Source of the DNA: Candidatus Brockarchaeota archaeon
GTDB taxonomy: Archaea > Thermoproteota > EX4484-205 > JAAOZP01
Reading direction: 5' to 3'
Assembly (NCBI GenBank): GCA_017601225.1
Contig: JAFNIX010000011.1
Span: forward strand, 1,121 to 65,120
Length of the DNA: 64,000 nucleotides
Shown here: in pieces, positions 36,824 to 61,563 of the stretch
How the letters are laid out: every line of letters begins with the position of its first letter
Position numbering within the stretch: position 1 is the first letter of the stretch
The notes under the pieces: model-generated
What the model saw: only the letters and a program-made list of their open reading frames with translations
Told to the model about the DNA's origin: nothing
The model's database searches: none
Program-made: the position numbers and the translations under genes

Positions 36824-37837
36824 TTATTTGGCAACCATGTCGAGAACCTCTTCCTTCTTCTCAAGTATTTCCAAGCAGTAGGTTATCGATTCGCCTATCG
36901 TCCTATCTATATCGTCCTCCCCGACGCCAAGCTCCTCCCTTATTAGTCTTCCATCTATGTAAGTGTAGGATGCCATTACGTCTGCGAATTCAACTGGGTC
37001 CAGCCCAGGCTCCACACCCCTCCTCATATACTCCTCCTTAACCCTCTTCATGAAACGCCGGTATAGGAAAGTCGGGATAGTAATTATCATCTTGTTGGGG
37101 CAACCCATATACTTGTTCACTATTCTCAAGAACTCTTTCCAAGTCATGTTATAGTAGCCAACCGGGTAGCATACTCCTCCCCTGCCCCGCTCAACCGCCC
37201 CCGCAATACACTCCCCCACCTGTCTCAGAGTAACCATGCTGGTTCCACCCTTAGGCCAGAAGACTGCTCTTCTCATGTTGAGAAGCTGTTTAACGAATAT
37301 CATCCAAACCGGTTTTCTACCGGGCTGCTTCCCGAAAATATAGGGCAGCTCGAGGACCATGACATCCATCTTATCGTCTGAGAAGGAGAGTGCCACGTTC
37401 TCCTGGTCAACGCGGCTCCTTATGTAAGGATGCTTCTCGTAAAGCTTTTTCTCAGGCCACAGCTTAGCGAAATAGGCGAAGTAGGAGCCGAGGACAACTG
37501 CCTTCCTAACCCCACACTCCTTAGCTAATCCTAGCAGCCTCTTGACAGGTGCAATATTATACTTATAGTAGGCGTCGTAAACTGGTGGGGGGAACTCCAC
37601 GCGCTCGTCAACCCCTGCGGCGAAAACAAAGCCCTCGCAGCCCTCGATCAGCCTCTTAATCTCCCCGTCGGACATCTCGTTTATATTCCCCAGTATCAGC
37701 TCCATTTCACCGGGAAGGTTTGCACCCTTCGGAATAGGCGGCAGCGCGATCGACCTCACCGAGTGCCCACGCCTAATAAGCTCAGCCGCTCCAGCCGACC
37801 CTAAGAGCCCAGTGCCTCCAACTATGAAAACCCTCAT
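36824..37837 (-). CDS. NAD-dependent epimerase/dehydratase family (SDR) protein
   Basis: MRVFIVGGTGLLGSAGAAELIRRGHSV Rossmann motif. Confidence 0.85.
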   Translation of the reverse strand: MRVFIVGGTGLLGSAGAAELIRRGHSVRSIALPPIPKGANLPGEMELILGNINEMSDGEIKRLIEGCEGFVFAAGVDERVEFPPPVYDAYYKYNIAPVKRLLGLAKECGVRKAVVLGSYFAYFAKLWPEKKLYEKHPYIRSRVDQENVALSFSDDKMDVMVLELPYIFGKQPGRKPVWMIFVKQLLNMRRAVFWPKGGTSMVTLRQVGECIAGAVERGRGGVCYPVGYYNMTWKEFLRIVNKYMGCPNKMIITIPTFLYRRFMKRVKEEYMRRGVEPGLDPVEFADVMASYTYIDGRLIREELGVGEDDIDRTIGESITYCLEILEKKEEVLDMVAK

Positions 37838-37973: not shown

Positions 37974-38070
37974 TCAGTCGCCAGCGATTCTCCTGTAAGA
38001 GTAAAGATGTCTATGCAAGTCAGCCCTATGATTATTCCCTGTTAAGTCTCTGAATATCTAGCGTGCTCAT
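37974..38070 (-). pseudogene. decayed partial copy of the small membrane-protein gene at 50835..51023
   Basis: 37974-38036 aligns with 50835-50897. The runs gcgattctcctgtaa (15/15) and ccctatgattat (12/12) are identical, overall identity is about 80%, and there is one 1-nt indel. It would encode …IIIGLTCIDIF / YSYRRIAGD* against the intact …IIIGLTGIIIFYIYRRIAGD*. It has the same orientation as the intact gene. Confidence 0.55.
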
Positions 38071-38086
38071 TAGATAAATGACCTTT

Positions 38087-40015
38087 TTAAAACGGAAGTA
38101 TCCACCCTACTTTGGAGAGAAGCACTATGCCTATTACTAGGCCAACGAGTATGCCTTCTCCTGTTGCAATGCCTGCTGCCACAACTGTTTTGTATTTTTC
38201 CCACCACTCTCTTCCAAGAAATCGGGGCATCACGTATCTTCCGATTAGTGCGGCTAGAAACATAGGAACCGTGAATGCTGGAAGTGTTGACATGCCTGTA
38301 GCAATACCCATTAAGCTAAATGGTATTGAAGCTATCTTGGTTAAGATCGAACCCACTACACCTAAGCCTACGGCTAGGGAGAAGAAGAACAAGAGAACAG
38401 GCAAGTTTAAGGTAAAGACCTGTCTAGTAGCCCACATAAGCTGGTTTATCGCTTGAACAGGCCATGAGATAAGCGTGTTTGGATATGCTGAGGAGGGGAT
38501 TGGAGCGATCATCCAGAACACGCTGGCATATATTACACCAAATATAGTGTAAAGTATAAATGCTATAACGAAGGCTTTTAAGAAATCAATCGGTTTCGTT
38601 TCAGTCAAATAAGCTACTTTAATGTTCTGAACCCATGTTGGAGTTGAGCTTCCACCTATTACTGGACTGAAAAACCAGGCGTCGATTTTCGGGTAGCCGG
38701 AGAGCATTATAGTGAAAGCCCATGCATAAGGTATACTTACCGCGTAACCTGTTTCACCAACTGCCCTGGTGCCTATTATAGCGTTCAGAAATGAGACGCC
38801 AAGTGAAACCGCAAGTGCAGGAAGTATGGGGAATTCCGGTATGAAATAATTGAAGAGTAGGACTGAGGCAGTAATTGAGGCAAAGTAGAGAGACAGAAGA
38901 ACTTTTAGAGAAGGATAGCCAGCAGCCTTACTCTGGGCTGAGAGCCTCCATAGGGAGCGAATGCCCTTCACCACCACTTTCCAATTCTGTGCTAACGCTA
39001 ATATGGAAATGGCTAGCATGAACCCGATCTGCGGTATAAGCCAGACCCTAAGCATAGACCTTTGCCAAACCAGACTCAGACTCATCCCGAAGGTCCATTC
39101 CTCCTTCCATAATGGAAAATAGCTGCTGAAAAACGAGAGTGCAAGATTGTTCCCAATTATCCACACTAAAATTGAGCTTGCGAACATATAGACCACTGTG
39201 TTAAACGGGATTAGGAAGCCGCCTATCCAGACTAGGGGATCTGTCGCGATGCCAAGTGCAGCACCGGGAAGAAGCCGCTCTATGCCTAGCAATCCGGTTG
39301 TCAGATCCCACCAGGGTACGGGAATGACCTGTATGTTCGTACCCCAAAGTCCAAGGCTCAGAGTATTAATCCCATACAGGAAAAACGAATAAAAAGCCCC
39401 AATCGCTGCAGAGATAATGAAGACTTCCATCTTATCAGAAGGCCTATCAGTAAGTGTATTTATCATCTGGGCGGATATATCTGCAAATGGAAAAGGTAGT
39501 TTCTCCGTCTCTAAAAATAGTTGGGCACAGATTATGGTTAACGAGATTTCCGCAATGATAAATAGAATGCCAAATTGCAAAGTTGAGAGAAACATTGGAA
39601 GAAGCCACGTGCTTGAGAGTAGAGTCCTGCTGAATTCTATCTCTTTCCAATATGGGACGTAGAAAGTAGGTATGACCTCTGGAAGCGGCAGCTTGGTAAA
39701 GGGATCTATGAATGACCATCCAACAGGTCCCGTTACCAAGTAGTGACGGTATATGAAGTCTGTCATGGGTGTTGATGCAGCGACACCTATCATTATGAAC
39801 ATGATGAAAAGTTCCTGCTTAGATAGGCGTATATTCATTAAGGAACCTACTTCTAGAAAAAGGATTACAACTATGTAACTGAAGGCTCCGGCTATTGCAG
39901 CCCCCGAAACCAGACTCAAATATATCGAAACAGGCAGGAGAACTATTGAAGCAAAGAAAAGAGCTAATATTACTCTCCAGGTTATTCCAGGTTTAAACTC
40001 TATGGTCTGGCCCAT
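38087..40015 (-). CDS. polytopic membrane protein, distant paralog of the 669-aa pair; OPT-superfamily-like permease (tentative)
   Basis: 642 aa with more than 14 hydrophobic segments. It shares RLSKQELFIMF, ETEKLPFPFADISAQMIN and LLPGAALGIATDP with the 669-aa proteins. The EKLPFP… motif and the C-terminal GIATGEGILVGLV recall OPT transporters (LPFPSGxAtA, AGLIAGEsL). Its start lies 1 nt after the upstream stop. Confidence 0.6.
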   Translation of the reverse strand: MGQTIEFKPGITWRVILALFFASIVLLPVSIYLSLVSGAAIAGAFSYIVVILFLEVGSLMNIRLSKQELFIMFIMIGVAASTPMTDFIYRHYLVTGPVGWSFIDPFTKLPLPEVIPTFYVPYWKEIEFSRTLLSSTWLLPMFLSTLQFGILFIIAEISLTIICAQLFLETEKLPFPFADISAQMINTLTDRPSDKMEVFIISAAIGAFYSFFLYGINTLSLGLWGTNIQVIPVPWWDLTTGLLGIERLLPGAALGIATDPLVWIGGFLIPFNTVVYMFASSILVWIIGNNLALSFFSSYFPLWKEEWTFGMSLSLVWQRSMLRVWLIPQIGFMLAISILALAQNWKVVVKGIRSLWRLSAQSKAAGYPSLKVLLSLYFASITASVLLFNYFIPEFPILPALAVSLGVSFLNAIIGTRAVGETGYAVSIPYAWAFTIMLSGYPKIDAWFFSPVIGGSSTPTWVQNIKVAYLTETKPIDFLKAFVIAFILYTIFGVIYASVFWMIAPIPSSAYPNTLISWPVQAINQLMWATRQVFTLNLPVLLFFFSLAVGLGVVGSILTKIASIPFSLMGIATGMSTLPAFTVPMFLAALIGRYVMPRFLGREWWEKYKTVVAAGIATGEGILVGLVIGIVLLSKVGWILPF

Positions 40016-40016
40016 T

Positions 40017-43000
40017 CTACCTCATACCCCCTTTATCCACCAACTCTATATATTTATTTTTCTCACTATCCGAGATCATCTTCCAGGTCAACAATTGCTT
40101 CCTGACGGCATCTATAAAACCATAGTTTAAAGCCACCCAGGTGTCCGGAGTACCCTCTATCCTTTCAAGCCTAAGCAGGAAGTCATATTTCCTCGTATCC
40201 TCGTAAAACTTAGAGTTTATTAAGGCCCTCTGATATACTCCTGAATCGAGAGGCATAAGGGAAACAAGAAGTTCCTGAGTTTTTCCTTTAAGATCTGTTT
40301 TAATACTTCTGACTATAAACGGGTCAGGGGTTTCGGAAGTATGTGCCTTGAAGAACTCCTCTAAGAATAAGTAAACCGCTTCAACCTCTTTTTCCTCCGT
40401 CAGTGAGAATGGTAATGGGATATCCCATATGTTGCCCTTCGGCTTCGTAGGAATCTTCCATTTTCTTTCAAGCGAGGGCGTAATTAGTTTCGAGGCCATT
40501 CGAATAGGATAAAACATCGCCAATAAGGTTGAGAGAATGCCTGCAAAGATTGCTAGGGCTATAGAAAGCGAGGTGGCGTTTAGAGAAAAGCTTTCCGGCA
40601 GTAATTTGCCGGCGATTAAAAGCGAATTAGCCACTACTCCTAGGAAGTAGGCGGGAACGACGGACAAGATCGAGTATGCTACAGCCTCTATTATTAACAT
40701 TATTGCAGAACCGGATGGGGGAAGGCCGACAGCACTATATACGAAGAGATCGCCTCTCCTCTCCTTTACTGAACCCAATACCGCTACCGAAATGGATGCC
40801 GCTCCTATCACTATCAAGGGCAGGGCGAAGGAGAGGCCTGAGGGGGTGAAGGAAACTATTGGACTGTAATATTTTGCTCCCTCTTGAGAGGAAACGTAAA
40901 TCGGAATACTATATACATTAGCTATTCTTTCTGCAAGAGTTGCAGCATCATCATAGCTTTTCGTCACTATGGAGACGCTTGCCAAATACCCACCCATGTC
41001 CTTTACTAATTCATGAGGCAATATCAGCATCATGCTCCATGGCGTAGGTGCATACTGCGGTTCCTGAACAGTTCCAAGAACTATAGATGGAAGAATAGGG
41101 TATAAGGGAGTATCGATGTATCCGTCAAAGTTAACAAAGCTGTTCAAAGTAGAGGAATTTACGATCCCCACTACTTTAAGATTTAAACCTTCAAAAACGA
41201 TCGTGTCGCCAACCTTAACCGATAGATCTTTAGCGATGTTAAGAGGAAGGATCGCGGAATAATAGTCTTCGGAGTTGAACCATCTCCCTTCAATTAAGGC
41301 TTTCGAATAATCGTAAACTTGGTATTCTTCAGGAGTTAACCCTATAACGGCTTTGATGGTAGTAGAGGAGATGTTTGTTTTTATGAAGGTATAGACGTCT
41401 CTACCTTCGATTGATTCAGGATACCACCAGAACCTCGGAGCAACGATTACCGTCAAATCGGCAAATCGCTCCTGCTTTAATATGTTAATCAAATCATAGT
41501 CGAATGCACCAGCAGGTTGCTGCCGAATATTCGTCTTTATACAAATTCCTATATAGTTGACTTTCCCTTCAGGAATAGTCGACGGCATGGGCGCTTGGAA
41601 AATCGAAACAGAGGTGAGCGATACAAACGCAAAAACCACGGAAGCTATCGAAAGCATAACTAAGGAAGTTCTCAGCTTGCGTCTTTTCATATGCTCTATA
41701 GTATATGGGAAAATTACTAATGTAAATGAAGTTAGGCTTCTTTCCGCGAAGTGAGCACCAAGCGCCTTTCTTCTTATCGTTTTCAAAGTATTTAGGGCTT
41801 CAGAAGAGAATAGGAAGGTTACAATCACGAAGAAAACTACTACAATTACGCTGAGAGGAGCCATGATGAAATTAGCTGCTAGTTTAAATATTGGATTTAC
41901 GTAGTATAAAAGAAGCATCATCACTATGAAAATGATTCCTGAAGATGCTGCCACTATTTTCCCTTGGGCTCTTATGAAGACGGCGGGCGCTAGGAATGAG
42001 AATAACGCTAGTATGATTATTAAGAATATAGAAGTCGTCGGGATATCATTTATTAAACCCATAACTCCTCCATAGGTTCTAACCACAATAGAATTTAAAG
42101 AAACTGCTGATTGAAGCATCGTCAAATAGTCAAGGGTTCTTAAAGAATCGGAAAGGAGACCCCTGTAGAATAAAGCGTTATTTAAAGAATCTTGGATTAA
42201 AGGGTTCCATATGTTTAATTCGCGTAACCCAGAATATCTGTTCACCGAAGTAGTGTAAATATTTAGCGCGGACTCGAGCAAGGCGTTTATATGAATTTCC
42301 TCATTGTCCTTCGAACAGTAGCCAGAAAAATCATATGGTGGTATTAGGGCTGTCGAAGTGTTAGTTAACAGTACTTGGAGCACTCTCATAGACCCTATGG
42401 TCATGAAGCTCACGAAATACGTGTGGGGTTGGACGAAGGCAACTAGGATTTTATCATCAGGCTGGAGGAAAACCCCCCAGGATATGTCTGGGCCAAGAGA
42501 TTTAGCGTTAAGGAGTTGAACTGAAGGAATGGATTGGAGCCAAATGTTTGTAGGTACACGGGGATCCCTGAAGATTAGTGGTCTTAAGCCTTGGTAGTCG
42601 AATAAGTTGAAGAATACGACCGTGTTAGATCTGAACGCTATCGTGGTTACGTTATAGGGATCCGTGTTTAATTGATAGTAGTTTGGAAGGTATTGTGCAC
42701 CGTACTGCCCAAAGTCTGGTGCATACTCTATCAGACCGGTTTCCTCGTTCAACCTAAATGCTAAGAACGTATAGGCACCTTGACATGGTGCTAAACCGTA
42801 ACCCAACCCTCTTACTTCAAACCTCCCCTCAGAATCTGAAAAAACGTAAATTATTTGGAAAGGATAATTCGTATAACCTAGGCCTCCAGGAAATACTGCG
42901 ACCATAGCGTTTGGAAGAGGTGTGTACCATCCCTTGGTAACATTGAATGTTAACGTCCTGCCATAAACTGTGATAAACCCGGCTACATCTGTTGCCCCCG

Positions 43001-44519
43001 CTGCTATAAGGGTTCTACTCCTTCCTGTGACTGCTGGAGACACTTGGTCCCACCTGATTCCCCAGTCTATCGAATTGGAGAGCTCATGAATTATAGCTAG
43101 GCTTAAGTAAACCTGGGGCCAAAGATTATCATATTGAACATTCTGGCTCAGCGGCAGTCCCCAGAAGAAGTTTAAGGTTCTACCCGTCTTTATCGTGAAG
43201 CCTAATCCATGAGCCATGGATAATGGCTCAGAATCCAGAATATATGGGGTCACTTGAGACCCCCACCAAGCATTCATGGGGAAACCGTAGATTACCTCTA
43301 CGGGGCTTACTTCCCTGCTAAAAGCATTCACTATATCCATAAGCTTTGTCTGCAACCATCCAGTCCATCTTGCCTGAACGGTTGTACTCCCATACCTGTA
43401 GAAAAACCCTTGACTGAGAAAAGATATGCTCTTAGAGCTTGTCGAAAAATCCATGTTGATCTGCAGCCAAATCTTAGTGTGCCCCTCAACAACACTATTG
43501 TTATAGAAGAACTCGTCCACAAAGGCTCTGGAGCCTGCAAGCGCCTCATAGTGGCCGGAGAAAGCAACGAACCAAATTGTCCTTTTAGGTTTCTTATCCG
43601 AGAAAACTCGTGCAAATTCTAGTAAGGCTGAAATCGATGTCGCCTCGTCTTTCGAAGATGCTAATGCAGGAACGACTGACCATGTATCGAAGTGGGTTGA
43701 AACAACAATTACATCATTCGGGTAATCCGTACCTTCTAATATACCAATTATATTTTGGCCGACAACGTTTTTGAAGACCATATTATTTACGATGGTGGCT
43801 TCAATTTCACCATTATTCTCCTCAAGCAGGTTTAAAACGAATAAAGCGTCTTTTCTAGAAATGTAAAGCCTCGGCAAGTATACTGGAGTAAGCAGGAACT
43901 TCGACCTGGCTTCAGCATGATTGCTCTCCTCAGGCTCGATGAAGATAACTCCCTTTGCCCCGAATGCAGCAGCCTGAACCCAGTTGCCCCCACTATTAAA
44001 ATCCATCAGAACGATCGTCCCGTTTATAGGCTTACCTTTAAGGGCTTGATAACTCCCGTCTCTAACGTAGAGGAGTTTACCGGAAACTCCTTCTGGAGGA
44101 GTCTTACAGGTTTGAATAAGATTAGGCCATAGTGAGAAGACCTTTATCCTATAAGAGCGGTCCTTGGTTTTCAGAACGATGTAGTTATCACCGTCTATTG
44201 GACTTACCACAGTGTAATTCTGAACAATTACCTTTAACCCTAATTCTTTAAACCTATCAGCTATGTATCTTGAAGCCCTATAGAAATCAGGGTAACCGGT
44301 TACTCTCGAGCTTAGAGAGGAGAAGAATTCCAAATGTTCAACAAGCCTCGACTTATCAAAATTTGACAAAACTGTTTGGAAGTCTCCAACATCATCCGGC
44401 TGGGCTTTCACGCTGAAAAAGGCTCCCATGCTGGAGAGCAAAGCTACCCCTATTAAAACCAAGATGAATGGAGTGAAAAAGTGTCTCCAGCATTCTTGCA
44501 AATCTTTATCAAATCTCAT
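40017..44519 (-). CDS. giant membrane protein: N-terminal TM + PA domain + M28-like peptidase domain + large extracellular region + two FtsX/MacB-like permease modules + cytoplasmic tail
   Basis: M28-like motifs VVSTHFDTW…SSKDEATSISALLEFARVF…FVAFSGHYEALAGSRAF. The FtsX signature VKERRGDLFVYSAVGLPPSGSAIMLIIEAVAYSILSVVPAYFLG lies near the C-terminus, with an earlier TM cluster. The ATG at 44519 has GAGGTGA 10 nt upstream (the track's TTG is at 44525). Confidence 0.75.
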   Translation of the reverse strand: MRFDKDLQECWRHFFTPFILVLIGVALLSSMGAFFSVKAQPDDVGDFQTVLSNFDKSRLVEHLEFFSSLSSRVTGYPDFYRASRYIADRFKELGLKVIVQNYTVVSPIDGDNYIVLKTKDRSYRIKVFSLWPNLIQTCKTPPEGVSGKLLYVRDGSYQALKGKPINGTIVLMDFNSGGNWVQAAAFGAKGVIFIEPEESNHAEARSKFLLTPVYLPRLYISRKDALFVLNLLEENNGEIEATIVNNMVFKNVVGQNIIGILEGTDYPNDVIVVSTHFDTWSVVPALASSKDEATSISALLEFARVFSDKKPKRTIWFVAFSGHYEALAGSRAFVDEFFYNNSVVEGHTKIWLQINMDFSTSSKSISFLSQGFFYRYGSTTVQARWTGWLQTKLMDIVNAFSREVSPVEVIYGFPMNAWWGSQVTPYILDSEPLSMAHGLGFTIKTGRTLNFFWGLPLSQNVQYDNLWPQVYLSLAIIHELSNSIDWGIRWDQVSPAVTGRSRTLIAAGATDVAGFITVYGRTLTFNVTKGWYTPLPNAMVAVFPGGLGYTNYPFQIIYVFSDSEGRFEVRGLGYGLAPCQGAYTFLAFRLNEETGLIEYAPDFGQYGAQYLPNYYQLNTDPYNVTTIAFRSNTVVFFNLFDYQGLRPLIFRDPRVPTNIWLQSIPSVQLLNAKSLGPDISWGVFLQPDDKILVAFVQPHTYFVSFMTIGSMRVLQVLLTNTSTALIPPYDFSGYCSKDNEEIHINALLESALNIYTTSVNRYSGLRELNIWNPLIQDSLNNALFYRGLLSDSLRTLDYLTMLQSAVSLNSIVVRTYGGVMGLINDIPTTSIFLIIILALFSFLAPAVFIRAQGKIVAASSGIIFIVMMLLLYYVNPIFKLAANFIMAPLSVIVVVFFVIVTFLFSSEALNTLKTIRRKALGAHFAERSLTSFTLVIFPYTIEHMKRRKLRTSLVMLSIASVVFAFVSLTSVSIFQAPMPSTIPEGKVNYIGICIKTNIRQQPAGAFDYDLINILKQERFADLTVIVAPRFWWYPESIEGRDVYTFIKTNISSTTIKAVIGLTPEEYQVYDYSKALIEGRWFNSEDYYSAILPLNIAKDLSVKVGDTIVFEGLNLKVVGIVNSSTLNSFVNFDGYIDTPLYPILPSIVLGTVQEPQYAPTPWSMMLILPHELVKDMGGYLASVSIVTKSYDDAATLAERIANVYSIPIYVSSQEGAKYYSPIVSFTPSGLSFALPLIVIGAASISVAVLGSVKERRGDLFVYSAVGLPPSGSAIMLIIEAVAYSILSVVPAYFLGVVANSLLIAGKLLPESFSLNATSLSIALAIFAGILSTLLAMFYPIRMASKLITPSLERKWKIPTKPKGNIWDIPLPFSLTEEKEVEAVYLFLEEFFKAHTSETPDPFIVRSIKTDLKGKTQELLVSLMPLDSGVYQRALINSKFYEDTRKYDFLLRLERIEGTPDTWVALNYGFIDAVRKQLLTWKMISDSEKNKYIELVDKGGMR

Positions 44520-44592
44520 TAGCAATCTTCACCTCTTCTAACATCCTGCCCGTAACAATTTATGATAAAAAAGAGTTTTTAAGGTTTTCTGA

Positions 44593-46602
44593 TTAAAATC
44601 TTCCGAGCCATGATGGCAGCGATACATTGAAGAAAGTGATTAAAGCTCCGAATAATACTAGAACGCCGAAGCCTATACCAATCCCCATTGCTATCGGCAT
44701 CCATTTTTCCTCGAATACTCTTGAGCCGCCGAACTTGAGGACCGCATATTTTACGATGAAGGCTACGAGCCAAGCGGGCCAGAAGCCCTCAGGCAACATC
44801 ATTAGACCTACTGGATTTATGAAGAACCACCGGAACCTTGACCTAAGACTATAGCATGCGAAGACGAATATCGTGCCCACTATAGTATAGGTCCATGTCT
44901 CCGCGACGGTTACTGCTGGAGGCGTACCGTAAGTGTAATTGTAAATTGTCGGCAGCATCCAAGCATCGTATTGTATAGAGTTTATCCTTGAGTATCCTCC
45001 GAAGCTTGTCATGAACCATGGCCATATGAAGTAAGCAGCAACGGCAGTAACTACTATAGAGGTTAACGCAACATAGAGTATTTCTTTATAGCTTGTATTA
45101 GTCGCCTCGCCTATTTTGAAGGACATGAAGCCCCAGTGTATGTTCATAGGACTCATCCTGGAGCCAGCTAATCCTAGTGAGGTGTACATCAACATAGCAT
45201 TGAATGCGTCTGGAGATGGTCTTTGACCCCACTGGCCTAGGAAAGTACCTGTGTCGAAAACTATGCCGTGATAGGAGCCACCGTAGGGATAGAAGTGTTG
45301 CTCTCCCATTATTCTTATCCAAGCGAACATGATGAAGACATAGAATATTGGGATGAATACTGCCATCACTATTGGTGTTCCCGCTACGGCGAAGAGTATG
45401 ATTTGGATAAGTAGTGTTCCTATGGCGCCGAACGCCATAAGCCTATATGAAATACCACCCACATCTCCACCTTCCCCAGAAATACCTTTTCTAAGAACTT
45501 CCAAGATATACTTATAGTACTTGAAAACTACGTATAGGGCTATGCCTACGGAAACAAGAGCGTCAAACTGGGCCCACTTGAATACTCCGAGCGAGTACGG
45601 GTATTGAGTCTCGTTTCCAGCGCCTGGTGTGAACGGGTTTATTCCCAGTCTGACAGCAGCTGTTTGGAATAGAACTCCCCAGATAAACCACCAGAGGGTA
45701 GCTGTCGCCAACACGTCTAAAGGAATCAGTTGTCCTATGGAAAAAGCATCAATAACATAAAAGTTGCCGACGAGTAATGCTCCGGGCAATGGGCCAGATG
45801 TTATAGCCAAAAGGTCTACTGGCCAGTTGGCCAGCGCATTGCCTCCGAAGGCCAGTGGCCAGAAGTTTATAACCTGCCCAGGAATTGAAAGCAGCATTCC
45901 TATGATAAGCCCTATGTAGAAGAACTTTACGCTGCCAATTTTCAGGTTGAATAGGTTAGGCTTATCGTCACTTGTCGTGGTGAAATTGTTTATCATGAAG
46001 CTTACTGGCATGACCCAGGGAAACGGCAGTTTTTCTACCTCCATTAACGGCTTTATTAGCATAGTTCCCCAGAACCACAAGGTTGCGAATTCGACGATTG
46101 ACCAGACTATCCAGAAGAGGATTGGTACTAACCATGGGCCAATGTCGAAGGCACCGCCATACCAGAAAGCGTTCATAACAACAGGATCCTTAGGAACAAT
46201 GAAAGGCGGAACTTTCTCGTAGAAAACTGCTTTGTATGCTTCCGTGTTTAGACCTGTTGTTGCATGTGCGATGCTCCAATTTGTTATCGGCGTAGTAGTC
46301 CAGTAGCCTATTCCCTGTGCAGCATAGTAGCTGCCAGCAGTTATATAGCAGATTACGAAGAACAGTGTTAGCTCCTGTGAAGAAAGCCTGATCCTTCCAG
46401 AGAGTTTAGATAGCACATAGATTATCACAAGATTCCAGAAGAATGGCAACGGGAATATTAATGGATAGTTCCACCATGCTCCGAAGCCCTGCATCACCAG
46501 GTTTAGAAAGTATCCTACTGGAGGAATCAGTATTGCGGAAATTATGATCCATGTTTTCAGGCCAGAAGGCTTAACCCTTTCCTTTGGAGCTGTTTCCCCC
46601 AA
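44593..46602 (-). CDS. 669-aa polytopic membrane protein, paralog A (OPT-superfamily-like, tentative)
   Basis: More than 14 TM segments. Motifs MEVEKLPFPWVMPVSFMIN and NWPVDLLAITSGPLPGAL. The TTG start is supported by AGGTGAT (46608-46614) 5 nt upstream. It is first in the operon with the 1500-aa and 642-aa genes. Confidence 0.65.
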   Translation of the reverse strand: MGETAPKERVKPSGLKTWIIISAILIPPVGYFLNLVMQGFGAWWNYPLIFPLPFFWNLVIIYVLSKLSGRIRLSSQELTLFFVICYITAGSYYAAQGIGYWTTTPITNWSIAHATTGLNTEAYKAVFYEKVPPFIVPKDPVVMNAFWYGGAFDIGPWLVPILFWIVWSIVEFATLWFWGTMLIKPLMEVEKLPFPWVMPVSFMINNFTTTSDDKPNLFNLKIGSVKFFYIGLIIGMLLSIPGQVINFWPLAFGGNALANWPVDLLAITSGPLPGALLVGNFYVIDAFSIGQLIPLDVLATATLWWFIWGVLFQTAAVRLGINPFTPGAGNETQYPYSLGVFKWAQFDALVSVGIALYVVFKYYKYILEVLRKGISGEGGDVGGISYRLMAFGAIGTLLIQIILFAVAGTPIVMAVFIPIFYVFIMFAWIRIMGEQHFYPYGGSYHGIVFDTGTFLGQWGQRPSPDAFNAMLMYTSLGLAGSRMSPMNIHWGFMSFKIGEATNTSYKEILYVALTSIVVTAVAAYFIWPWFMTSFGGYSRINSIQYDAWMLPTIYNYTYGTPPAVTVAETWTYTIVGTIFVFACYSLRSRFRWFFINPVGLMMLPEGFWPAWLVAFIVKYAVLKFGGSRVFEEKWMPIAMGIGIGFGVLVLFGALITFFNVSLPSWLGRF

Positions 46603-46676
46603 CTTCTATCACCTTTTCACGCAAAAAAGTAATTTCCATCCGTAAATATAAAGCTTACTCCCATTATTTTCCCATA
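46435..46676. repeat. 242-bp near-identical repeat, copy A (partner 50491..50732)
   Basis: Covers the first 56 codons, the SD, the 5' leader and the TATA region of paralog A. I found 4 mismatches, all within ctgcatcaccagg versus ctgtattattagg. The offset to copy B is a constant 4056 nt. Confidence 0.9.
46643..46653 (-). promoter_or_regulatory. TATA-box-like element (CTTTATATTTA on the minus strand) about 41-51 nt upstream of the TTG start of paralog A
   Basis: The minus strand reads GTAAGCTTTATATTTACGG…AAAGGTGATAGAAGTTG. An identical element sits upstream of paralog B. Confidence 0.45.
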
Positions 46677-47195
46677 TTAAGGGAGCCAAGTGGCTTGAGC
46701 AATACTCTCCTCCAGACCCGGATGCGGACTGGAGGTTAAGCACACTGAAAGCATACATCGACAAGTTTAAAGGAGAAAGGCAATAGTTTTTCCGGGTCAT
46801 GAAACGTTTTAATTATCCCACTATTTGGGGGTTTGCAAAACCTCTTCGTCCATTATCATTAAGAATAAGGATTTTGTCAACCGGATTAGTGGAAATTTAT
46901 TTCCGATTACAAATGGAGGGTTATCGAGAGACATCAGGGTAAGAGCATATATAGTATAAGTATTAACTGGAGACAACTATGCTAATGGGAAGGCGCCGCT
47001 CATGTCGAGAACACAATTCAAGGATTTGTGATACCCTACTTAAGAAAAGCCATTCCGACAGCTAAAAAACATGAAATACCATTCATAAAACATACTGAGG
47101 TGAATCTTTGACCAACATAGACATGATCCTATACGCAGGATCGATGTGCTTGACCCAATAGAACTGATAGAAGGGACTGATATAGGAGAAGTAAA

Positions 47196-47223
47196 GTAAA
47201 TAAAAATATGTAAATAAAAATAT
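47196..47223. repeat. perfect tandem duplication of a 14-nt unit (gtaaataaaaatat x2)
   Basis: Read directly: gtaaataaaaatat gtaaataaaaatat, inside the 717-bp gene-free spacer 46603..47319. Confidence 0.9.
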
Positions 47224-47319
47224 GATAAAAGGATGGCTGTTATTGGAAATGTTGATTGCTCCTATGTTCTATTCTACGTTGATCGAAAGTATAAGAGTAA
47301 AAAGTATATAGCTAAATAC

Positions 47320-48351
47320 TTAGGCTAGATGTTCGTCTGGGAAATCCTCCTCTAGAGGCAGTGAAACTGATTTCTTTCTTAGAATAGAGATGACCCCCGC
47401 TATCGCCAATTCTAATGCCTTTCTCCCATCTTCTCCCGACACAGGGACAGGGGTATCCCTTTTTACACATTCTTTGAAAGCTTCCAGTTCAAGAAAGTAC
47501 GGATCTTTGGTTTCCAAGATAATTCTTTTCCTTTTTACTGAACCTCCGGTTAAAAAGATATCGATTTGTTTAGGATTGTTACTACCTATCCGAATCAATC
47601 CCTTGGTACCGATAACCTCAAGGTTATAGGTGAAAGGATAACCTTCAGGCATTATCCAACTTCCTTCAACGTAAGCGCCAAGCGTATTTTTAAACAAGAT
47701 GAAGGCCCTAGTATGATCGTGAGAATAAGCCCTTCTTACTAAGGTTCCGCCTTGGGCATATATCTCTCTTGCGTTCCCAAAAGTCCATATGAAGAAGTCA
47801 AGATCATGAATACTAGTGTCTATGAAAACACCGCCTCCCTTGTGGGGATCATTATGCCAATCTTTCCATACGGAAAAATTATGGGCAATCAGTCGATTGG
47901 CTTTTGCAAAAACAGGCATTCCAATTTCACCATCCATTATTAAACTCTTGGCCATTATGTATTCCGCCCAGAATCTTAGAACATGAGCAACCATAAGTTT
48001 CCTCCCTGAATTCCTAGCCTTGTTGATCATGCTTTCAGCATCCTTAAGTTTTAAGGCTACTGGTTTTTCAACAATAACATTCTTCCCGTATTCTAGTGCA
48101 GTCTCCGCGATCTCTTTGTGCGTATATGTTGGGGTGCACACATCCACTATATCCACAGAGCTGTCTTTTAAAACTGGATCTAGGTGTTCGTAAAAATTTG
48201 GTATATGAAATTTTTCACTCATCTGCTTAGCCCTCTCCCTTTCCACATCTACGCATGCTAAAAGCTCTACACCGCTTATAGACTTCCAACGATCAATGTG
48301 AATCTGACCTATGTTTCCGCAACCGACAACAGCCGCTCCCAAACTATTCAT
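47320..48351 (-). CDS. Gfo/Idh/MocA-family oxidoreductase
   Basis: LGAAVVGCGNIGQIHIDRW Rossmann motif, VDIVDVCTPTYTHKEIAETALEYGKNVIVEKPVA. AT-rich coding sequence. Confidence 0.85.
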   Translation of the reverse strand: MNSLGAAVVGCGNIGQIHIDRWKSISGVELLACVDVERERAKQMSEKFHIPNFYEHLDPVLKDSSVDIVDVCTPTYTHKEIAETALEYGKNVIVEKPVALKLKDAESMINKARNSGRKLMVAHVLRFWAEYIMAKSLIMDGEIGMPVFAKANRLIAHNFSVWKDWHNDPHKGGGVFIDTSIHDLDFFIWTFGNAREIYAQGGTLVRRAYSHDHTRAFILFKNTLGAYVEGSWIMPEGYPFTYNLEVIGTKGLIRIGSNNPKQIDIFLTGGSVKRKRIILETKDPYFLELEAFKECVKRDTPVPVSGEDGRKALELAIAGVISILRKKSVSLPLEEDFPDEHLA

Positions 48352-48373
48352 CTCACTCCAGAAAAACCCTTAG

Positions 48374-48382
48374 AATATAAAG
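48374..48382 (-). promoter_or_regulatory. TATA-box-like element (CTTTATATT on the minus strand) about 23-31 nt upstream of ATG 48351, consistent with a leaderless transcript
   Basis: The minus strand reads GGTAAAACCTTTATATTCTAAGGGTTTTTCTGGAGTGAG-ATG. Confidence 0.4.
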
Positions 48383-48616
48383 GTTTTACCTAATACCTTG
48401 ATTTAAAGTACTAGATGGAAAATATTTGCAACACCCCCTAACTACATGCGTTAGTACTAAAATATGGTGAACACCATTTAGACATACTGTTGAAAAGACG
48501 TTAATTGACTAAGCTCCAGCAAGAATGTACTAATTCTAATCTGGAAGCCAATACAATAGATTGCCTATGTTGAGATTTGAGAGTTAAGCCTGCTATTATG
48601 GAGCAAAATATTCTTG

Positions 48617-48629
48617 TTTTTTAAAAAAA
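48617..48629 (-). terminator. oligo-T tract (T7 on the minus strand) about 20 nt downstream of the paralog B stop; archaeal-type terminator candidate
   Basis: The minus strand after the stop reads …ACCCCATTTTTTTAAAAAACAAG. Confidence 0.35.
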
Positions 48630-48632
48630 TGG

Positions 48633-48660
48633 GGTTAAAACCTAGTGGTTAAAACCTAGC
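48633..48660. repeat. tandem duplication of a 14-nt unit spanning the stop codon of paralog B (ggttaaaacctagt / ggttaaaacctagc)
   Basis: Read directly, 13/14 identical. The second unit contains the stop and the last 3 codons (…ARF*). Confidence 0.85.
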
Positions 48661-50658
48661 GAACCATGCTGGCAAAGCTGTTCCGAAGAAAGTTATCAAG
48701 GCGCCGAAGAGCACTAAGCCGCCGAAGCCTATGCAGGCTCCCGTTGCCATTGGCAGCCATCTTTCTTCAAAAACTCTTGCACCGCCGAACTTGAGAACCG
48801 CATACTTTATAACGAAGGCTACAAGCCAAGTTGGCCACCACCCGTTCGGGAGCATCAGCATTCCTATCGGGTTTATGAAGAACCAGGTGAATCTAGCTCT
48901 TAAGAAGTAGATCAGCGGTGTGACGACTATTCCGAGCAATGCATAGCCCCAAGTTTCTTCTACTGTGAGGGCTGGAGGAGTACCGTATGTCCAGTTGTAT
49001 ATTCCTGGGAGAGACCAGTCATTGTAGCTTATCGAGTTGATTCTAGAATATCCTCCGAAGCTCGTCATGAACCATGGCCATATGAAGTAGACCGCAACTA
49101 GCGTTGAAAGCAGCGAGATTATGGTGATGTAGAGAACTTCCTTTCCTGACGTGTTGGTCTCGTAAGCCATCTTGTAGGATTTGAATCCATGGTGCATCGC
49201 CATGGAGCTCATTCTTAACCCTGTGCCATAGCTGTAATACATCAGTATCGTGTTGAAAGCTGCTGGAGATGGTCTGGGGCCCCACTGGCCTAGGAAAGTG
49301 CCTGTGTCAAACACTAGGTATGAATAGGTGTCTACGCTTGGCATGAACTCCTCAACTTCACCCATCATCCTTGTCCATCCAAACATGTAGAAAATGAAGA
49401 ATAGCGGTATGAATATGGCCATGATTATCGGCGAACCTGTGACGGTGAACAGGATGACTTGAAGCAGGTATGTGCCTATGGCTCCCCAGGCTAGGAGTCT
49501 ATAGGAAACTCCATCGTCCTCAGCCTTTTCCCCCTTCAGACCCTTCTTGAAGATTTCCAAAATATGCTGCCTATACTTGACCACAACGGTAGCAGCCAGA
49601 CCTAGTGATAGACCTATCCAGGAAAACTGCATCCATTTAAATGGGCCCAGGTTCCAAGGATATGCAAACTCGTTACCTGCTCCCGGTGTGAATGGGGCTA
49701 GGCCGGTTCTAACAGCTAAAGTTTGATAGATTACACCGAAGACAAACCAGTAAAGAACTGCTGTGGCCAGTGCATCTAAAGGTATGAACTGTGCTACGAA
49801 CACGTCAGTGACATAAAGGTTGCCGGAAGTTAATGCTCCGGGCAATGGGCCAGATGTTATAGCCAAAAGGTCTACTGGCCAGTTTGTGAGGGCATTGCCT
49901 CCGAAGGCCAGTGGCCAGAAGTTTATCACCTGCCCCGGAATCGAGAGCAATGCTCCAATTATGAAGCCTATCCAGAAGAGCTTCGTCAACCTAAGTCTAA
50001 AGTTGAAGAGAATGGGAGTTCCCTCTTCTTCCTCCGTGTAGTATTTAACAAGATACGTGTGAGGCGCTATGCCTGGGAAAGGCAGTCTCTCAGTTTCGAC
50101 TAATGGCTTTCTAAGGAAATAACCCCATATTGCCATTCCAATGAATTGCCCTATTCCCCAGACTATCCAGAAGAGAATTGGAACCAGCCAAGGACCTAGG
50201 TTGAAGGTGCCGCCATACCAGAAGGCACGCATCACCACGGGATCCTTAGGGACAATGAAGGCAGGGACTTTCTCATAGAAGACACTTTGGTATGCTTCGT
50301 TATTTAATCCAGAGGTTGAGAAACCTATGTTCCAATGTGGAAGCGGAGTGGTGGTCCAATAGCCGAATCCGTATGCAGCATACATTCCACCTGCTGTTAT
50401 GAAGCATACCACGAAGAATAATGTGACCTCCTGTGGGGAAAGCTTAAAACTTTTAGACATTTTGGTTAGTAAGTAGAATATTACTATATGCCAGAAGAAT
50501 GGCAACGGGAATATTAATGGATAGTTCCACCATGCTCCGAAGCCCTGTATTATTAGGTTTAGAAAGTATCCTACTGGAGGAATCAGTATTGCGGAAATTA
50601 TGATCCATGTTTTCAGGCCAGAAGGCTTAACCCTTTCCTTTGGAGCTGTTTCCCCCAA
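48649..50658 (-). CDS. 669-aa polytopic membrane protein, paralog B (OPT-superfamily-like, tentative)
   Basis: Same length as paralog A with no indels (constant 4056-nt offset). The first 35 residues are identical and the remainder is clearly diverged. Motif VETERLPFPGIAPHTYLV. Confidence 0.65.
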   Translation of the reverse strand: MGETAPKERVKPSGLKTWIIISAILIPPVGYFLNLIIQGFGAWWNYPLIFPLPFFWHIVIFYLLTKMSKSFKLSPQEVTLFFVVCFITAGGMYAAYGFGYWTTTPLPHWNIGFSTSGLNNEAYQSVFYEKVPAFIVPKDPVVMRAFWYGGTFNLGPWLVPILFWIVWGIGQFIGMAIWGYFLRKPLVETERLPFPGIAPHTYLVKYYTEEEEGTPILFNFRLRLTKLFWIGFIIGALLSIPGQVINFWPLAFGGNALTNWPVDLLAITSGPLPGALTSGNLYVTDVFVAQFIPLDALATAVLYWFVFGVIYQTLAVRTGLAPFTPGAGNEFAYPWNLGPFKWMQFSWIGLSLGLAATVVVKYRQHILEIFKKGLKGEKAEDDGVSYRLLAWGAIGTYLLQVILFTVTGSPIIMAIFIPLFFIFYMFGWTRMMGEVEEFMPSVDTYSYLVFDTGTFLGQWGPRPSPAAFNTILMYYSYGTGLRMSSMAMHHGFKSYKMAYETNTSGKEVLYITIISLLSTLVAVYFIWPWFMTSFGGYSRINSISYNDWSLPGIYNWTYGTPPALTVEETWGYALLGIVVTPLIYFLRARFTWFFINPIGMLMLPNGWWPTWLVAFVIKYAVLKFGGARVFEERWLPMATGACIGFGGLVLFGALITFFGTALPAWFARF

Positions 50659-50732
50659 CTTCTATCACCTTTTCACGCAAAAAAGTAATTTCCATCCGTA
50701 AATATAAAGCTTACTCCCATTATTTTCCCATA
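50491..50732. repeat. 242-bp near-identical repeat, copy B (partner 46435..46676)
   Basis: See copy A. Identity stops abruptly at cccata|ataggc versus cccata|ttaagg. Confidence 0.9.
50699..50709 (-). promoter_or_regulatory. TATA-box-like element upstream of paralog B (identical to 46643..46653)
   Basis: Part of the 242-bp repeat. SD AGGTGAT at 50664-50670. Confidence 0.45.
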
Positions 50733-50834
50733 ATAGGCGATGGAGCAAAAAGATTGAAGATGAAAAAGCGTCGGCACTTAGTTTTAAGCCATTTTGCATG
50801 CCTCGTCACACGCAAGCCATTAAAGCGATAGTCA

Positions 50835-51023
50835 TTAATCGCCCGCGATTCTCCTGTAAATGTAAAAGATGATGATTCCAGTCAACCCTATGATTATCAG
50901 CAGCAACGGGGGAGACAGGAAATCTCCCAGTGTTTGCACGATCAACCAAACAATCCCGATGAATAATATTGCGAGAAAAACCACGAGCACGATGCCAGCC
51001 TTATCACCGCTCAAGCCGGACAC
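50835..51023 (-). CDS. small two-TM membrane protein (62 aa or shorter)
   Basis: IVLVVFLAILFIGIVWLIVQTL and LLLIIIGLTGIIIFYIY hydrophobic segments. A decayed copy of its 3' end occurs at 37974..38036. The start is uncertain (GTG 51023 lies only about 10 nt from a TATA-like tttttataaatt). Confidence 0.5.
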   Translation of the reverse strand: MSGLSGDKAGIVLVVFLAILFIGIVWLIVQTLGDFLSPPLLLIIIGLTGIIIFYIYRRIAGD

Positions 51024-51341
51024 TCAACCTGTTTTTATAAATTATTGCTTTATTAACCTTATGAAGTGAATCCGACTGAAACAATAAGGATGGAAGCATA
51101 CTTGATGAGCATCAGTTGAAAGACCGAAAAGCCATTTCCATAGGGCTTGATGGAGGAAAGCTTGTAACACGCGTCCTTTTTCTAGCCGGGCAAATTAATT
51201 AAGGTAGTAGGCATCGTGCTGAGAAAGGCTTATGAATCGCACGCCCACTAAATCATATTTAATCCGTCGCTATCGTAGAATTAGAAATTCGACACTTATT
51301 AAAGCTTAAATAATACGGTCGTCGATAAATGCCGATGAAAG

Positions 51342-53066: not shown

Positions 53067-53178
53067 TTGCACACTAATATTATGTGCCCATTACCATCCC
53101 ATAATTTGTTTATTTTCAATCGTAAGAAATAAAATTTATATATGGTGTCTGAAAGCGGTTCGCCGGGGGTGGAGGCTA

Positions 53179-54036: not shown

Positions 54037-54285
54037 AAAACTCTTTGCAAAATATTCAGAAAATCGGTGTTACAGGGTTGCATGAAAAACTTATTAAACA
54101 GCATCTTCCTCCAATACTTCGGGGAGGGGGGCCAAGAGAATTCTCTTAGCGCATGCATTATTGAAGAATCTGGTTCTCCACAAGACTCTTTTAACCACTG
54201 TATTTATGCATTCTTCCCTCTAAAAACAATGAGAGGATGGTTGAAAAAGCTCCAAGGATTTTGGGATGAATGAAGTAGGATTCGT

Positions 54286-54897: not shown

Positions 54898-54902
54898 CTC
54901 CT

Positions 54903-61540: not shown

Positions 61541-61563
61541 AGCTGGGTTAATAAGGGTTAAGG

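What the first reader, a model, noticed from the sequence alone, without database searches (positions are those of the whole stretch)
37974..51023. 13-kb AT-richer membrane-protein island bracketed by a small gene and a decayed direct copy of its 3' end
The intact 62-aa membrane-protein gene (50835..51023, minus) and a 63-nt remnant (37974..38036, minus, about 80% identical, with 15- and 12-nt perfect runs and one frame-breaking indel) flank the block in direct orientation. The block holds the three OPT-like permeases, the M28/FtsX giant and a Gfo/Idh/MocA gene. Spot counts of 60-nt lines inside give about 30-43% GC (40021: 37%, 42001: 30%, 45001: 43%, 47521: 30%). Lines in the flanks give about 45-55% (33421: 48%, 59401: 55%). 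An intact gene at one end and a displaced 3' fragment at the other is the footprint left by integrative elements that target gene 3' ends. No integrase is present and the repeats have diverged, so any event would be old.
Basis: partly seen in the sequence, partly recalled or inferred. Interest (0 to 1): 0.6.

Follow-up and report, generated by a model that had tools for sequence, protein, structure and literature searches.

The report
Repeat-flanked gene island, lost by recombination
A 12.9-kb block of membrane-protein genes in a hot-spring archaeon (Brockarchaeota) sits between a small gene and a decayed stub of that gene's other allele; natural strains have lost the block by recombination between the two copies, but nothing shows it to be a self-mobile element.

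Summary
The remnant matches the 62-aa gene's 3' end at 83% over 59 nt (E 7e-10 against the whole genome). It is actually about 88 nt long (37974-38061). The block has 43.4% GC against 47.5% for the genome.

Same-genus relatives have the small gene directly next to the epimerase. One conspecific genome, GCA_038873995.1, has flanks 99.2-99.9% identical to this window but no block. Its small gene follows the intact copy up to ATAATCATAGGG and the remnant after it, including the remnant's 1-nt deletion. This is a precise 12,862-bp loss by crossover inside the 12-nt perfect run. The same joint coexists with the filled form in hot-spring metagenomes.

The integrative-element reading is not supported:
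- No integrase lies on the island contig of any carrier genome screened for one.
- Codon usage is native.
- Junctions differ among relatives.
- The two repeats belong to different allele classes, and the intact gene shows no allele switch at the repeat.

The best origin model is recombination between two haplotypes, homologous on one side and illegitimate inside the resident small gene on the other. This is an ordinary flexible island in a little-known phylum, with an unusually clear deletion polymorphism. Interest is low to moderate.

The parts
50835..51023 (-). Intact small gene. It encodes a two-helix membrane protein of 62 aa from the GTG start, or 59 aa from the TTG used in relatives' gene calls. 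It is the 'class I' allele and has a TATA-like box about 25 nt upstream.
   Evidence: ORF. It has 15 homologs, all from this lineage, and no Pfam family. It is class I over both halves.
37974..38061 (-). Pseudogene remnant of the resident 'class II' small gene, covering codons ~30-62 plus the stop. It carries a ~14-nt deletion, a 1-nt deletion and about 10 substitutions relative to the intact conspecific allele.
   Evidence: Alignments. It is closest to the L065, G008 and G012 alleles, not to the co-resident gene. E=7e-10.
38024..38035 (-). 12-nt perfect run ATAATCATAGGG, remnant copy. This is the crossover site of the natural deletion.
   Evidence: joint 38023->50886, 12 letters fit both sides.
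50886..50897 (-). 12-nt perfect run ATAATCATAGGG, copy in the intact gene. This is the other crossover partner.
38024..50885 (.). The 12,862-bp segment that is absent from GCA_038873995.1 and from metagenome contigs.
   Evidence: L082 7803-17014 matches window 38035-28824 at 99.9%, and L082 5666-7860 matches window 53034-50839 at 99.2%. Logan contig joint in run X4.
38062..38086 (-). Island tail after the permease stop. G009, G016 and L070 share it. The illegitimate junction with the resident small gene lies at its end.
38087..40015 (-). Polytopic membrane protein 'A' (642 aa), a distant DUF6785-like/OPT-like protein.
   Evidence: No Pfam hit. Weak TIGR00728 OPT hit. At least 8 paralogs in the genome.
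40017..44525 (-). 1502-aa fusion of an M28-like peptidase domain with MacB-type periplasmic and FtsX permease domains.
44593..46602 (-). DUF6785/DUF6784 membrane protein 'B' (669 aa).
46661..47277 (+). URO-D family pseudogene remnant. The gene is intact at this position in related islands (L061, L062, L074, L075). It accounts for the AT-rich 'spacer'.
   Evidence: tblastn E=1.5e-30; 83% nt identity over 602 nt. Intact gene calls.
47320..48351 (-). Gfo/Idh/MocA NAD-dependent sugar oxidoreductase (343 aa).
48649..50658 (-). DUF6785/DUF6784 membrane protein 'C' (669 aa), 65% identical to 'B'.
46435..46676 (-). Gene-conversion patch: the promoter plus first codons of 'B' are nearly identical to those of 'C' at 50491-50732.
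   Evidence: 4 differences in 242 nt.
48649..51341 (.). Recent inter-species recombination tract. It is 99.8-100% identical to the G009-type island, while the rest of the island is 84-91% identical.
36824..37837 (-). SDR epimerase/dehydratase, the first gene of the conserved carbohydrate locus. It is the ancestral downstream neighbour of the small gene.
51342..52040 (+). DUF4013 gene, the conserved left flank.

Best explanation
The block is a flexible (accessory) gene island of a Brockarchaeota species. It lies in a hypervariable zone between the DUF4013/methyltransferase pair and a conserved sugar-utilisation locus. It is not a self-mobile element.

(1) Ancestral state (shown). The small membrane-protein gene directly abutted the epimerase.

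(2) Origin (inferred). A haplotype carrying its own, diverged allele of the small gene followed by the five-gene island (type P1, as in G002, G016 and L070) recombined with a haplotype of type P2 (small gene followed by epimerase, as in G008, G012, L065 and X8). The exchange was homologous on the DUF4013 side. On the other side it was illegitimate, joining ~26 nt past the last island gene to codon ~30 of the resident small gene. This left the resident gene's 3' third as a dead stub next to the epimerase. The junction is old: a different species (G009) shares it, with ~84% nt identity across the adjoining permease gene.

(3) Decay (shown). The stub decayed and the island itself is eroding (URO-D pseudogene).

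(4) Loss (shown). The two imperfect direct repeats still recombine. In a conspecific genome and in several hot-spring samples, the 12,862-bp island has been deleted by a crossover inside the 12-nt identical run. This produced a frameshifted 64-aa hybrid small gene. Filled and deleted forms coexist in the same samples.

(5) Likely function (inferred from domains only). The island is an accessory uptake and processing module: three OPT-like/DUF6785 permeases, an M28-FtsX surface protein and a sugar oxidoreductase, placed beside a glycan-catabolism locus.
For: Ancestral adjacency. The small gene is followed directly by the epimerase in G008, G012 and G009:C59. The same holds, with full right-flank synteny, in three near-conspecific genomes L065-L067 and in an X8 contig with both flanks.

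Deletion and its polarity. L082 is 99.9% and 99.2% identical to the window in its two flanks. Its small gene switches from the intact copy to the remnant inside ATAATCATAGGG, and it inherits the remnant's 1-nt deletion and substitutions. The hybrid protein is shown. Against the intact L065 allele, the remnant has about 10 substitutions and 2 deletions in 88 nt, whereas the adjoining flank differs by ~2%. The L082 3' end therefore evolved as a pseudogene before it became part of a gene.

Population evidence. The joint 38023->50886 occurs in a depth-8 contig of run X4, where island contigs have depth ~2.5. X1 and X3 show the same joint. In X1 the flanks have depth 48-50 and the island 27-29.

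The filled state is real. Independent assemblies carry it.

The junction is old. G009:C38 has the same breakpoint, while its permease A is 83.8% nt identical.

Two allele classes. The remnants are 0.80-0.87 identical to class II alleles and 0.63-0.70 to class I. The intact gene is 0.86-0.89 identical to class I in both halves.

P1 and P2 haplotypes and the junction sequence.

Recombination is active at this locus. There is a 2.7-kb tract at 99.8-100% identity inside an 84-91% island, and a conversion patch.

No integrase or tRNA. Native codon usage.
Against: - The origin step is a reconstruction from present-day haplotypes. No genome shows the event itself, and microhomology at the illegitimate junction is at most ~3 nt.
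- G006, G010 and L068 carry a different left junction: small gene, then an epimerase fragment ending at codon ~177, then the island. This needs either a second independent event or a single duplicative insertion.
- A trans-acting recombinase cannot be excluded for the deletion, because only one crossover position has been seen.
- Only assembled contigs, not raw reads, were available, so rare circular forms would be missed.
- The species tree rests on one 1092-aa protein, and recombination is rife.
- The function of the island is inferred from domain content only.
Confidence: 0.6

Rival explanations
1. Decayed site-specific integrative element. An element carrying a copy of the small gene's 3' end integrated into that gene through an integrase. 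The integrase has since been lost, and the att repeats have diverged with age.
For: The geometry fits: an intact gene at one end, a displaced 3' fragment in direct orientation at the other, empty sites in relatives, and precise loss at a short identical core. GC is 4 points below the genome and tetranucleotide usage is an outlier.
Against: No integrase lies on the island contig of the six carriers screened (G000, G002, G006, G009, G010, G016; G016 has no match genome-wide), and there is no tRNA target. The intact gene is not a hybrid: both halves and the upstream spacer are the same allele class, while the remnant is the other class. The remnant also extends 5' of the crossover core. The left and right junctions differ among carriers. 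Codon usage is native, and the low GC is largely the amino-acid bias of the DUF6785 family plus decayed spacers. Island genes diverge roughly in step with the species.
Confidence: 0.1
2. A single duplicative (Campbell-type) insertion. A circular DNA carried the island plus a ~760-bp segment running from small-gene codon ~30 to epimerase codon ~177, and it integrated by one homologous crossover. This would give: small gene, truncated epimerase, island, truncated small gene, epimerase. Lineages then lost different redundant pieces, and later recombination swapped in the class I allele.
For: It unites the two junction types in one event. G006, G010 and L068 keep the small gene and an epimerase fragment ending sharply at codon ~177, 11 nt before the island's promoter box. 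G000 and G009 keep the truncated small gene followed by the full epimerase. About 35 nt after the stop of the intact G000 gene still resembles the native spacer.
Against: No epimerase trace is detectable in the left spacer of G000, G002 or G016 (z <= 1 against shuffles). No genome shows both partial copies. The two small-gene copies belong to different allele classes, which needs an extra replacement step.
Confidence: 0.2
3. Reversed polarity. The L082-type genome (no island, 64-aa gene) is the ancestral target, and the island entered the G000 lineage recently by recombination at the 12-nt core.
For: Integration and excision through the same core are formally the same reaction. The flanks are 99.2-99.9% identical, so the event in either direction is recent.
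Against: The L082 3' end carries a frameshift and about 10% substitutions relative to every functional allele, while the flank differs by ~2%. This is the mark of prior pseudogene life. The same island-remnant junction exists in another species at ~84% identity. The remnant's 5' extension (codons ~30-42, decayed) would have to be element-borne by coincidence.
Confidence: 0.05
4. Assembly artefact: a chimeric MAG contig joined at the repeated 3' end.
For: MAG contigs can be chimeric at repeats, and several strains coexist in these samples.
Against: Three other NCBI assemblies and Logan contigs of several runs contain the same filled structure with the same junction. So does a different species at 84-88% identity.
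Confidence: 0.01

Closest known systems
Integrase-type genomic islands and proviruses that insert into the end of a tRNA or protein-coding gene and carry a replacement gene end. An example is the dusA-specific integrase islands (PMC4482086). Archaeal integrative elements at tRNA genes are cited from my own knowledge.
   Same: An intact gene at one border and a displaced gene fragment in direct orientation at the other. Empty sites occur in relatives, and the island is lost precisely through a short identical core.
   Different: There is no integrase in any carrier and no tRNA. The intact gene is not a host/element hybrid. Junctions are not conserved among carriers. The cargo is a native paralog family with native codon usage.
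Homology-facilitated illegitimate recombination (HFIR), described in naturally competent bacteria and in E. coli conjugation (PMC3240628).
   Same: One seamless homologous side and one illegitimate junction inside a resident gene. The incoming DNA comes from a diverged relative and replaces the resident segment up to the illegitimate joint.
   Different: It is inferred here, not observed. The organism is an uncultured archaeon whose DNA-uptake route is unknown. The segment is larger (about 13 kb) than typical experimental HFIR inserts. Microhomology at the joint is minimal.
Short-homology or direct-repeat-mediated deletion of genomic islands (replication slippage, single-strand annealing, microhomology-mediated end joining). 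This is general knowledge.
   Same: A precise deletion between imperfect direct repeats, with the crossover in a 12-nt identical run. One hybrid repeat copy is left behind.
   Different: Nothing unusual. The pathway (RadA-dependent or not) is untested in this lineage.
Hyperplastic or variable regions of archaeal chromosomes, such as the Sulfolobus islandicus hyperplastic region holding most strain-specific genes (PMC3718332), and archaeal 'dark matter islands' (PMC4158269).
   Same: Strain-specific modules are concentrated at one locus. Here neighbouring modules, including a polymorphic-toxin-like operon, also come and go.
   Different: This is shown only from MAGs and metagenome contigs of Brockarchaeota (phylum described in PMC8065059). 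The scale of the variable zone is not mapped.

Membership tests
Site-specific integrative element (integrase-type genomic island / provirus / ICE) | Encodes, or sits beside, its own integrase or recombinase | tested here: not met
   Pfam scans of all large island ORFs show none. A PF00589 scan of six carrier genomes finds no hit on any island contig; the only hit in G000 is on contig C12, and G016 has none at all.
Site-specific integrative element (integrase-type genomic island / provirus / ICE) | Flanking direct repeats (att) derived from the target gene end, with the restored gene being host 5' part plus element 3' part | tested here: not met
   The repeats exist. However, the intact gene is class I in both halves, the remnant is class II, and there is no allele switch at the repeat boundary.
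Site-specific integrative element (integrase-type genomic island / provirus / ICE) | Same insertion site and junctions in all carriers | tested here: not met
   There are two left-junction types and at least four right-junction types among G000, G009, G002, G016, G006, G010, L068, L070 and L071.
Site-specific integrative element (integrase-type genomic island / provirus / ICE) | Empty site in relatives | tested here: met
   G008, G012, G009:C59, L065-L067, X8 and L082.
Site-specific integrative element (integrase-type genomic island / provirus / ICE) | Excised circular form | tested here: inconclusive
   No 'goes back' joint across the ends was seen in 8 runs, but only assembled contigs were available, and these drop rare forms.
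Site-specific integrative element (integrase-type genomic island / provirus / ICE) | Foreign composition or codon usage | tested here: not met
   GC is 4 points lower and tetranucleotide usage is an outlier. Synonymous codon usage lies at the 8th-45th percentile, and paralogs elsewhere share the bias.
Flexible island acquired by one-sided homologous plus illegitimate recombination (HFIR-like) | One seamless side and one junction inside a resident gene without extended homology | tested here: met
   The left side is collinear with relatives through DUF4013 and the methyltransferase gene. The right junction joins the island tail to codon ~30 of the resident gene, with <=3 nt shared.
Flexible island acquired by one-sided homologous plus illegitimate recombination (HFIR-like) | Both parental haplotypes exist in the gene pool | tested here: met
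   P1 (class I small gene followed by the island, no epimerase there): G002, G016, L061/L070. P2 (class II small gene followed by epimerase): G008, G012, L065, X8.
Flexible island acquired by one-sided homologous plus illegitimate recombination (HFIR-like) | Direct observation of uptake and recombination | not testable with these tools
   The lineage is uncultured.
Direct-repeat (short-homology) mediated deletion | The deletion endpoints fall inside a run identical in both repeats, leaving one hybrid copy | tested here: met
   L082 alignment. Logan joint with 12 letters fitting both sides.
OPT oligopeptide transporter superfamily (for the three permeases) | Match to the family model above its curated cut-off | tested here: not met
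   TIGR00728 scores 18.6 bits against a cut-off of 128 for the 642-aa protein only. The 669-aa proteins match DUF6785/DUF6784. The proteins are OPT-like at most.

The most novel reading that the evidence does not exclude
The island is a non-autonomous mobilisable element of Brockarchaeota. A recombinase encoded elsewhere recognises the ATAATCATAGGG core in the small gene and excises and re-inserts the island, and this explains its spread across species. This would be an integrase-less 'satellite' island that targets a protein-coding gene in an archaeal phylum with no known mobile elements of this kind.
Probability: 0.07. Interest if true: 0.6.

Novelty: new member of a known kind. Interest (0 to 1): 0.3.

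Why it matters
This gives a clean, sequence-level example of how accessory gene blocks are gained, eroded and lost in an uncultured archaeal phylum known only from metagenomes. The example includes the ancestral site, the filled site, the decaying stub, and a natural precise deletion that coexists with the filled form in the same springs. It also shows frequent recombination between co-occurring Brockarchaeota species, seen as near-identical tracts inside diverged islands. It is a caution as well: a 'gene plus displaced 3' fragment' signature need not mean an integrase-driven element. For biology, it marks the DUF6785 / M28-FtsX / oxidoreductase cluster as dispensable, strain-variable cargo next to a sugar-utilisation locus. 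It does not reveal a new mechanism.

Tried and rejected
- **Epimerase trace in the left spacer.** I looked for one in G000, G002 and G016 to support a single duplicative insertion. None was found above shuffled controls.
- **Second small-gene copy.** I looked for another copy, or other remnants, in the genome. There are none.
- **Remnant in G007.** I searched the G007 spacer between the DUF4838 and DUF4013 genes. There is none; G007 lacks the small gene, the epimerase and the island altogether.
- **Extending JGI contigs.** I tried to extend L061 and L062 through the genome search handles. The records are not held. I used a metagenome scan with the 642-aa protein instead.
- **Circular-form joints.** None were seen in 8 runs, but only contigs were available.
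- **GCGCGCGC palindrome as recombination site.** I considered it because it sits at junctions in G002, G016 and G007. It is absent from the G000 junctions and is a genome-wide intergenic motif.
- **Chimeric-contig artefact.** Rejected on the basis of independent assemblies.
Full report
**Organism and setting.** The window is contig C3:1121-65120 of a 2.3-Mb, 55-contig MAG. Near-identical or related contigs are titled Candidatus Brockarchaeota, Thermoproteota or Bathyarchaeota MAGs from hot springs. The runs holding the sequence are hot-spring metagenomes. The phylum was described from such MAGs (PMC8065059).

**1. The observation.** The small gene (50835-51023, minus) and the stretch at 37974-38036 are truly homologous.
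- They share 59 nt at 83% identity with one indel. blastn gives E=7.4e-10 against the whole genome, and there is no third copy.
- The local alignment score is 66, against 16.9 +/- 2.2 (maximum 29) for dinucleotide shuffles.
- Alignment with intact alleles from relatives shows the remnant is longer than reported. It starts at about 38061 (codon ~30 of the gene), ~26 nt after the stop of the 642-aa permease, and it contains a ~14-nt internal deletion and the 1-nt deletion.
- The block holds three polytopic proteins. Two match DUF6785/DUF6784. The third has no Pfam hit and a far sub-threshold OPT hit.
- It also holds an M28 + MacB_PCD + FtsX fusion of 1502 aa and a Gfo/Idh/MocA oxidoreductase.
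- The 718-nt 'spacer' between the oxidoreductase and permease B is a URO-D pseudogene. The gene is intact in related islands.

**2. Composition.**
- The block has 43.4% GC. The genome has 47.5%, which puts the block at the 1.8th percentile of 13-kb windows. A weaker dip continues to about 56000.
- Tetranucleotide usage is the most deviant of all 13-kb windows (r=0.77 against 0.94 +/- 0.03). Two of the other lowest windows also hold DUF6785 paralogs.
- First-position GC is about 0.46 in all DUF6785 paralogs genome-wide, against a genome mean of 0.52.
- After removing amino-acid effects, synonymous codon choice of the five island genes falls at the 8th-45th percentile of the genome's genes.
- Composition therefore does not argue for recent foreign origin. 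It reflects membrane-protein bias, decayed spacers and a mild GC3 drop in three genes.

**3. Empty sites exist.**
- In same-genus genomes the small gene directly precedes the epimerase: G008, G012 and G009:C59.
- Three near-conspecific genomes (L065-L067) have flanks 97.7% identical to the window. They show the small gene, then the epimerase, then the whole conserved sugar locus.
- A 35-kb metagenome contig in run X8 shows this arrangement with the DUF4013 flank as well.
- The spacing from the small-gene stop to the epimerase start (137 nt) equals that of the remnant in the window.
- The remnant is therefore the resident small gene's own 3' part, at its original place.

**4. A natural precise deletion.** The G000 epimerase protein occurs, letter for letter, on a 164-kb contig of GCA_038873995.1 (L082), which has both flanks but no island.
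- L082 matches window 38035-28824 at 99.9% and window 53034-50839 at 99.2%.
- Its small gene equals the intact copy up to ...CTGATAATCATAGGG. After that it equals the remnant, including the remnant's 1-nt deletion and substitutions. The product is a frameshifted 64-aa protein.
- The crossover therefore lies inside the 12-nt perfect run (38024-38035 / 50886-50897), and 12,862 bp are missing.
- Polarity. Against the intact L065 allele, the remnant part has about 10 substitutions and two deletions in 88 nt, while the adjoining flank differs by ~2%. That sequence lived as a pseudogene before it became part of L082's gene. In addition, the island-remnant junction is shared with another species at ~84% identity. 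The deletion is therefore recent and the filled state is old.
- Metagenome contigs agree. Run X4 has a depth-8 contig with the joint 38023->50886 (12 letters fit either side), next to island contigs at depth ~2.5. X1 and X3 contain the same joint. In X1 the flanks have depth 48-50 and the island 27-29.
- Three other NCBI assemblies carry the filled state. It is therefore not an assembly artefact.

**5. Why it is not an integrase element.**
- No tRNA is present.
- No recombinase domain occurs in any island ORF. No PF00589 hit lies on the island contig of G000, G002, G006, G009, G010 or G016, and G016 has none at all.
- The permeases belong to a family with at least 8 paralogs per genome.
- Island proteins are 85-95% identical among species whose marker protein is 90-96% identical. 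The island has therefore been in the clade for a long time.
- Junctions vary. On the left, the small gene directly precedes permease C in G000, G009, G002 and G016. In G006, G010 and L068 the order is the small gene, 105 nt, an epimerase fragment (codons ~108-177), 11 nt, then the same promoter box.
- On the right, permease A is followed by one of four arrangements:
  - the remnant and the epimerase (G000, G009);
  - a truncated oxidoreductase gene (G002, L071);
  - two other genes of 426 and 210 aa (G006, G016, L070);
  - in G002 and G016 the epimerase sits elsewhere in the genome.
- Most telling is the allele pattern:
  - The intact G000 gene belongs to allele class I (0.86-0.89 identity to G002, G016 and L061) in both its 5' and 3' halves.
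  - Both remnants (G000 and G009) are class II (0.80-0.87 identity to L065; 0.67-0.70 to the co-resident intact gene).
  - An element that replaces only the gene's 3' end predicts a class switch inside the intact gene. None is seen.

**6. Origin model.** The data fit recombination between two haplotypes present in the gene pool.
- P1 is DUF4013, then the class I small gene, the island, the 426-aa and 210-aa genes, and onward.
- P2 is DUF4013, then the class II small gene, the epimerase, the oxidoreductase, and onward.
- The G000/G009 type has P1 sequence from the left through ~27 nt past permease A. It then joins P2 at codon ~30 of the resident gene, with at most ~3 nt of microhomology.
- This is the pattern of homology-facilitated illegitimate recombination, in which one end is homologous and the other illegitimate (PMC3240628).
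- The G006 type would be the mirror event, illegitimate at epimerase codon ~177. Alternatively, a single duplicative (Campbell-type) insertion followed by differential loss could explain both junction types. I found no epimerase trace in the G000 left spacer to support that alternative, and the allele classes argue against a simple in-situ duplication.
- Recombination at the locus is plainly active:
  - A 2.7-kb tract (48649-51341) is 99.8-100% identical to the G009-type island.
  - The neighbouring genes are 84-94% identical and the epimerase 96.7%.
- The promoters and first codons of permeases B and C have been homogenised, with 4 differences in 242 nt.

**7. Wider locus.** G007 has neither the small gene, the epimerase nor the island; its DUF4838 gene abuts DUF4013. 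L082, G008, G002 and G007 also lack the V4R-to-412-aa block (window 53035-62047), where earlier agents described a polymorphic-toxin-like operon. The region is a plasticity zone.

**Verdict.** The predicted empty site exists, and the repeats are recombinogenic. The mechanism, however, is ordinary recombination in a flexible genomic region, not a decayed integrative element. Novelty: a new example of a known kind. Interest is low to moderate.

Noticed in passing
Whole genome G000 (e.g. C13:6478, C12:141945); relatives L033 ~14985, L030 ~9385, L032 ~9620, L060 ~15480: The palindrome TAGCGCGCGCTA occurs 14 times and AGCGCGCGCT 32 times in 2.3 Mb, where a 12-mer is expected about 0.1-0.3 times. 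50 of 56 GCGCGCGC sites lie outside ORFs. Several sit between a TATA-like box and GGAGG/ATG. In relatives the motif sits exactly at module junctions next to the island and upstream of the relocated epimerase. It could be a promoter or regulator site, or a recombination hotspot.
   Followed up: partly
window 53035-62047: The V4R gene plus the three-gene giant-protein (polymorphic-toxin-like) operon is a second large indel. The 99%-identical conspecific L082 has 224 unrelated nt in its place. In G008, G002 and G007 the methyltransferase gene is followed directly by the TFIIB gene.
   Followed up: partly
window 48649-51341 vs L037/L028 (G009-type): A 2.7-kb tract covering the DUF4013-small gene spacer, the small gene and permease C is 99.8-100% identical between two species whose remaining island is 84-91% identical. 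The tract ends exactly at the stop of permease C. This indicates very recent inter-species gene flow.
   Followed up: partly
window 46661-47277 (+): A URO-D family pseudogene lies in the AT-rich spacer. The gene is intact (358-363 aa) at the same place in the JGI and G009-type islands. The genome holds many URO-D paralogs.
   Followed up: yes
L030 8325-9381 (G002) and L032 8562-9614 (G016): In two species the epimerase gene, with only ~43 nt of its promoter, sits at a different locus as a single-gene module (88-89% nt identity). Homology ends at the stop codon and at a GCGCGC motif upstream.
   Followed up: partly
G000 contig C13:1-4186 vs L065/L066: Near-conspecific genomes join the ribosomal-protein cluster (C13 in G000) to the small-gene/epimerase locus. 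In G000, C13 instead continues into a >1400-aa surface-protein gene that resembles the giant toxin-like protein. This is a larger rearrangement between close strains.
   Followed up: no
L031 9912-10100 (G016) and L068 10576-12620: The small gene is frameshifted in G016 although the island is present, and permease C is split in L068. The small gene and individual island genes appear dispensable.
   Followed up: no
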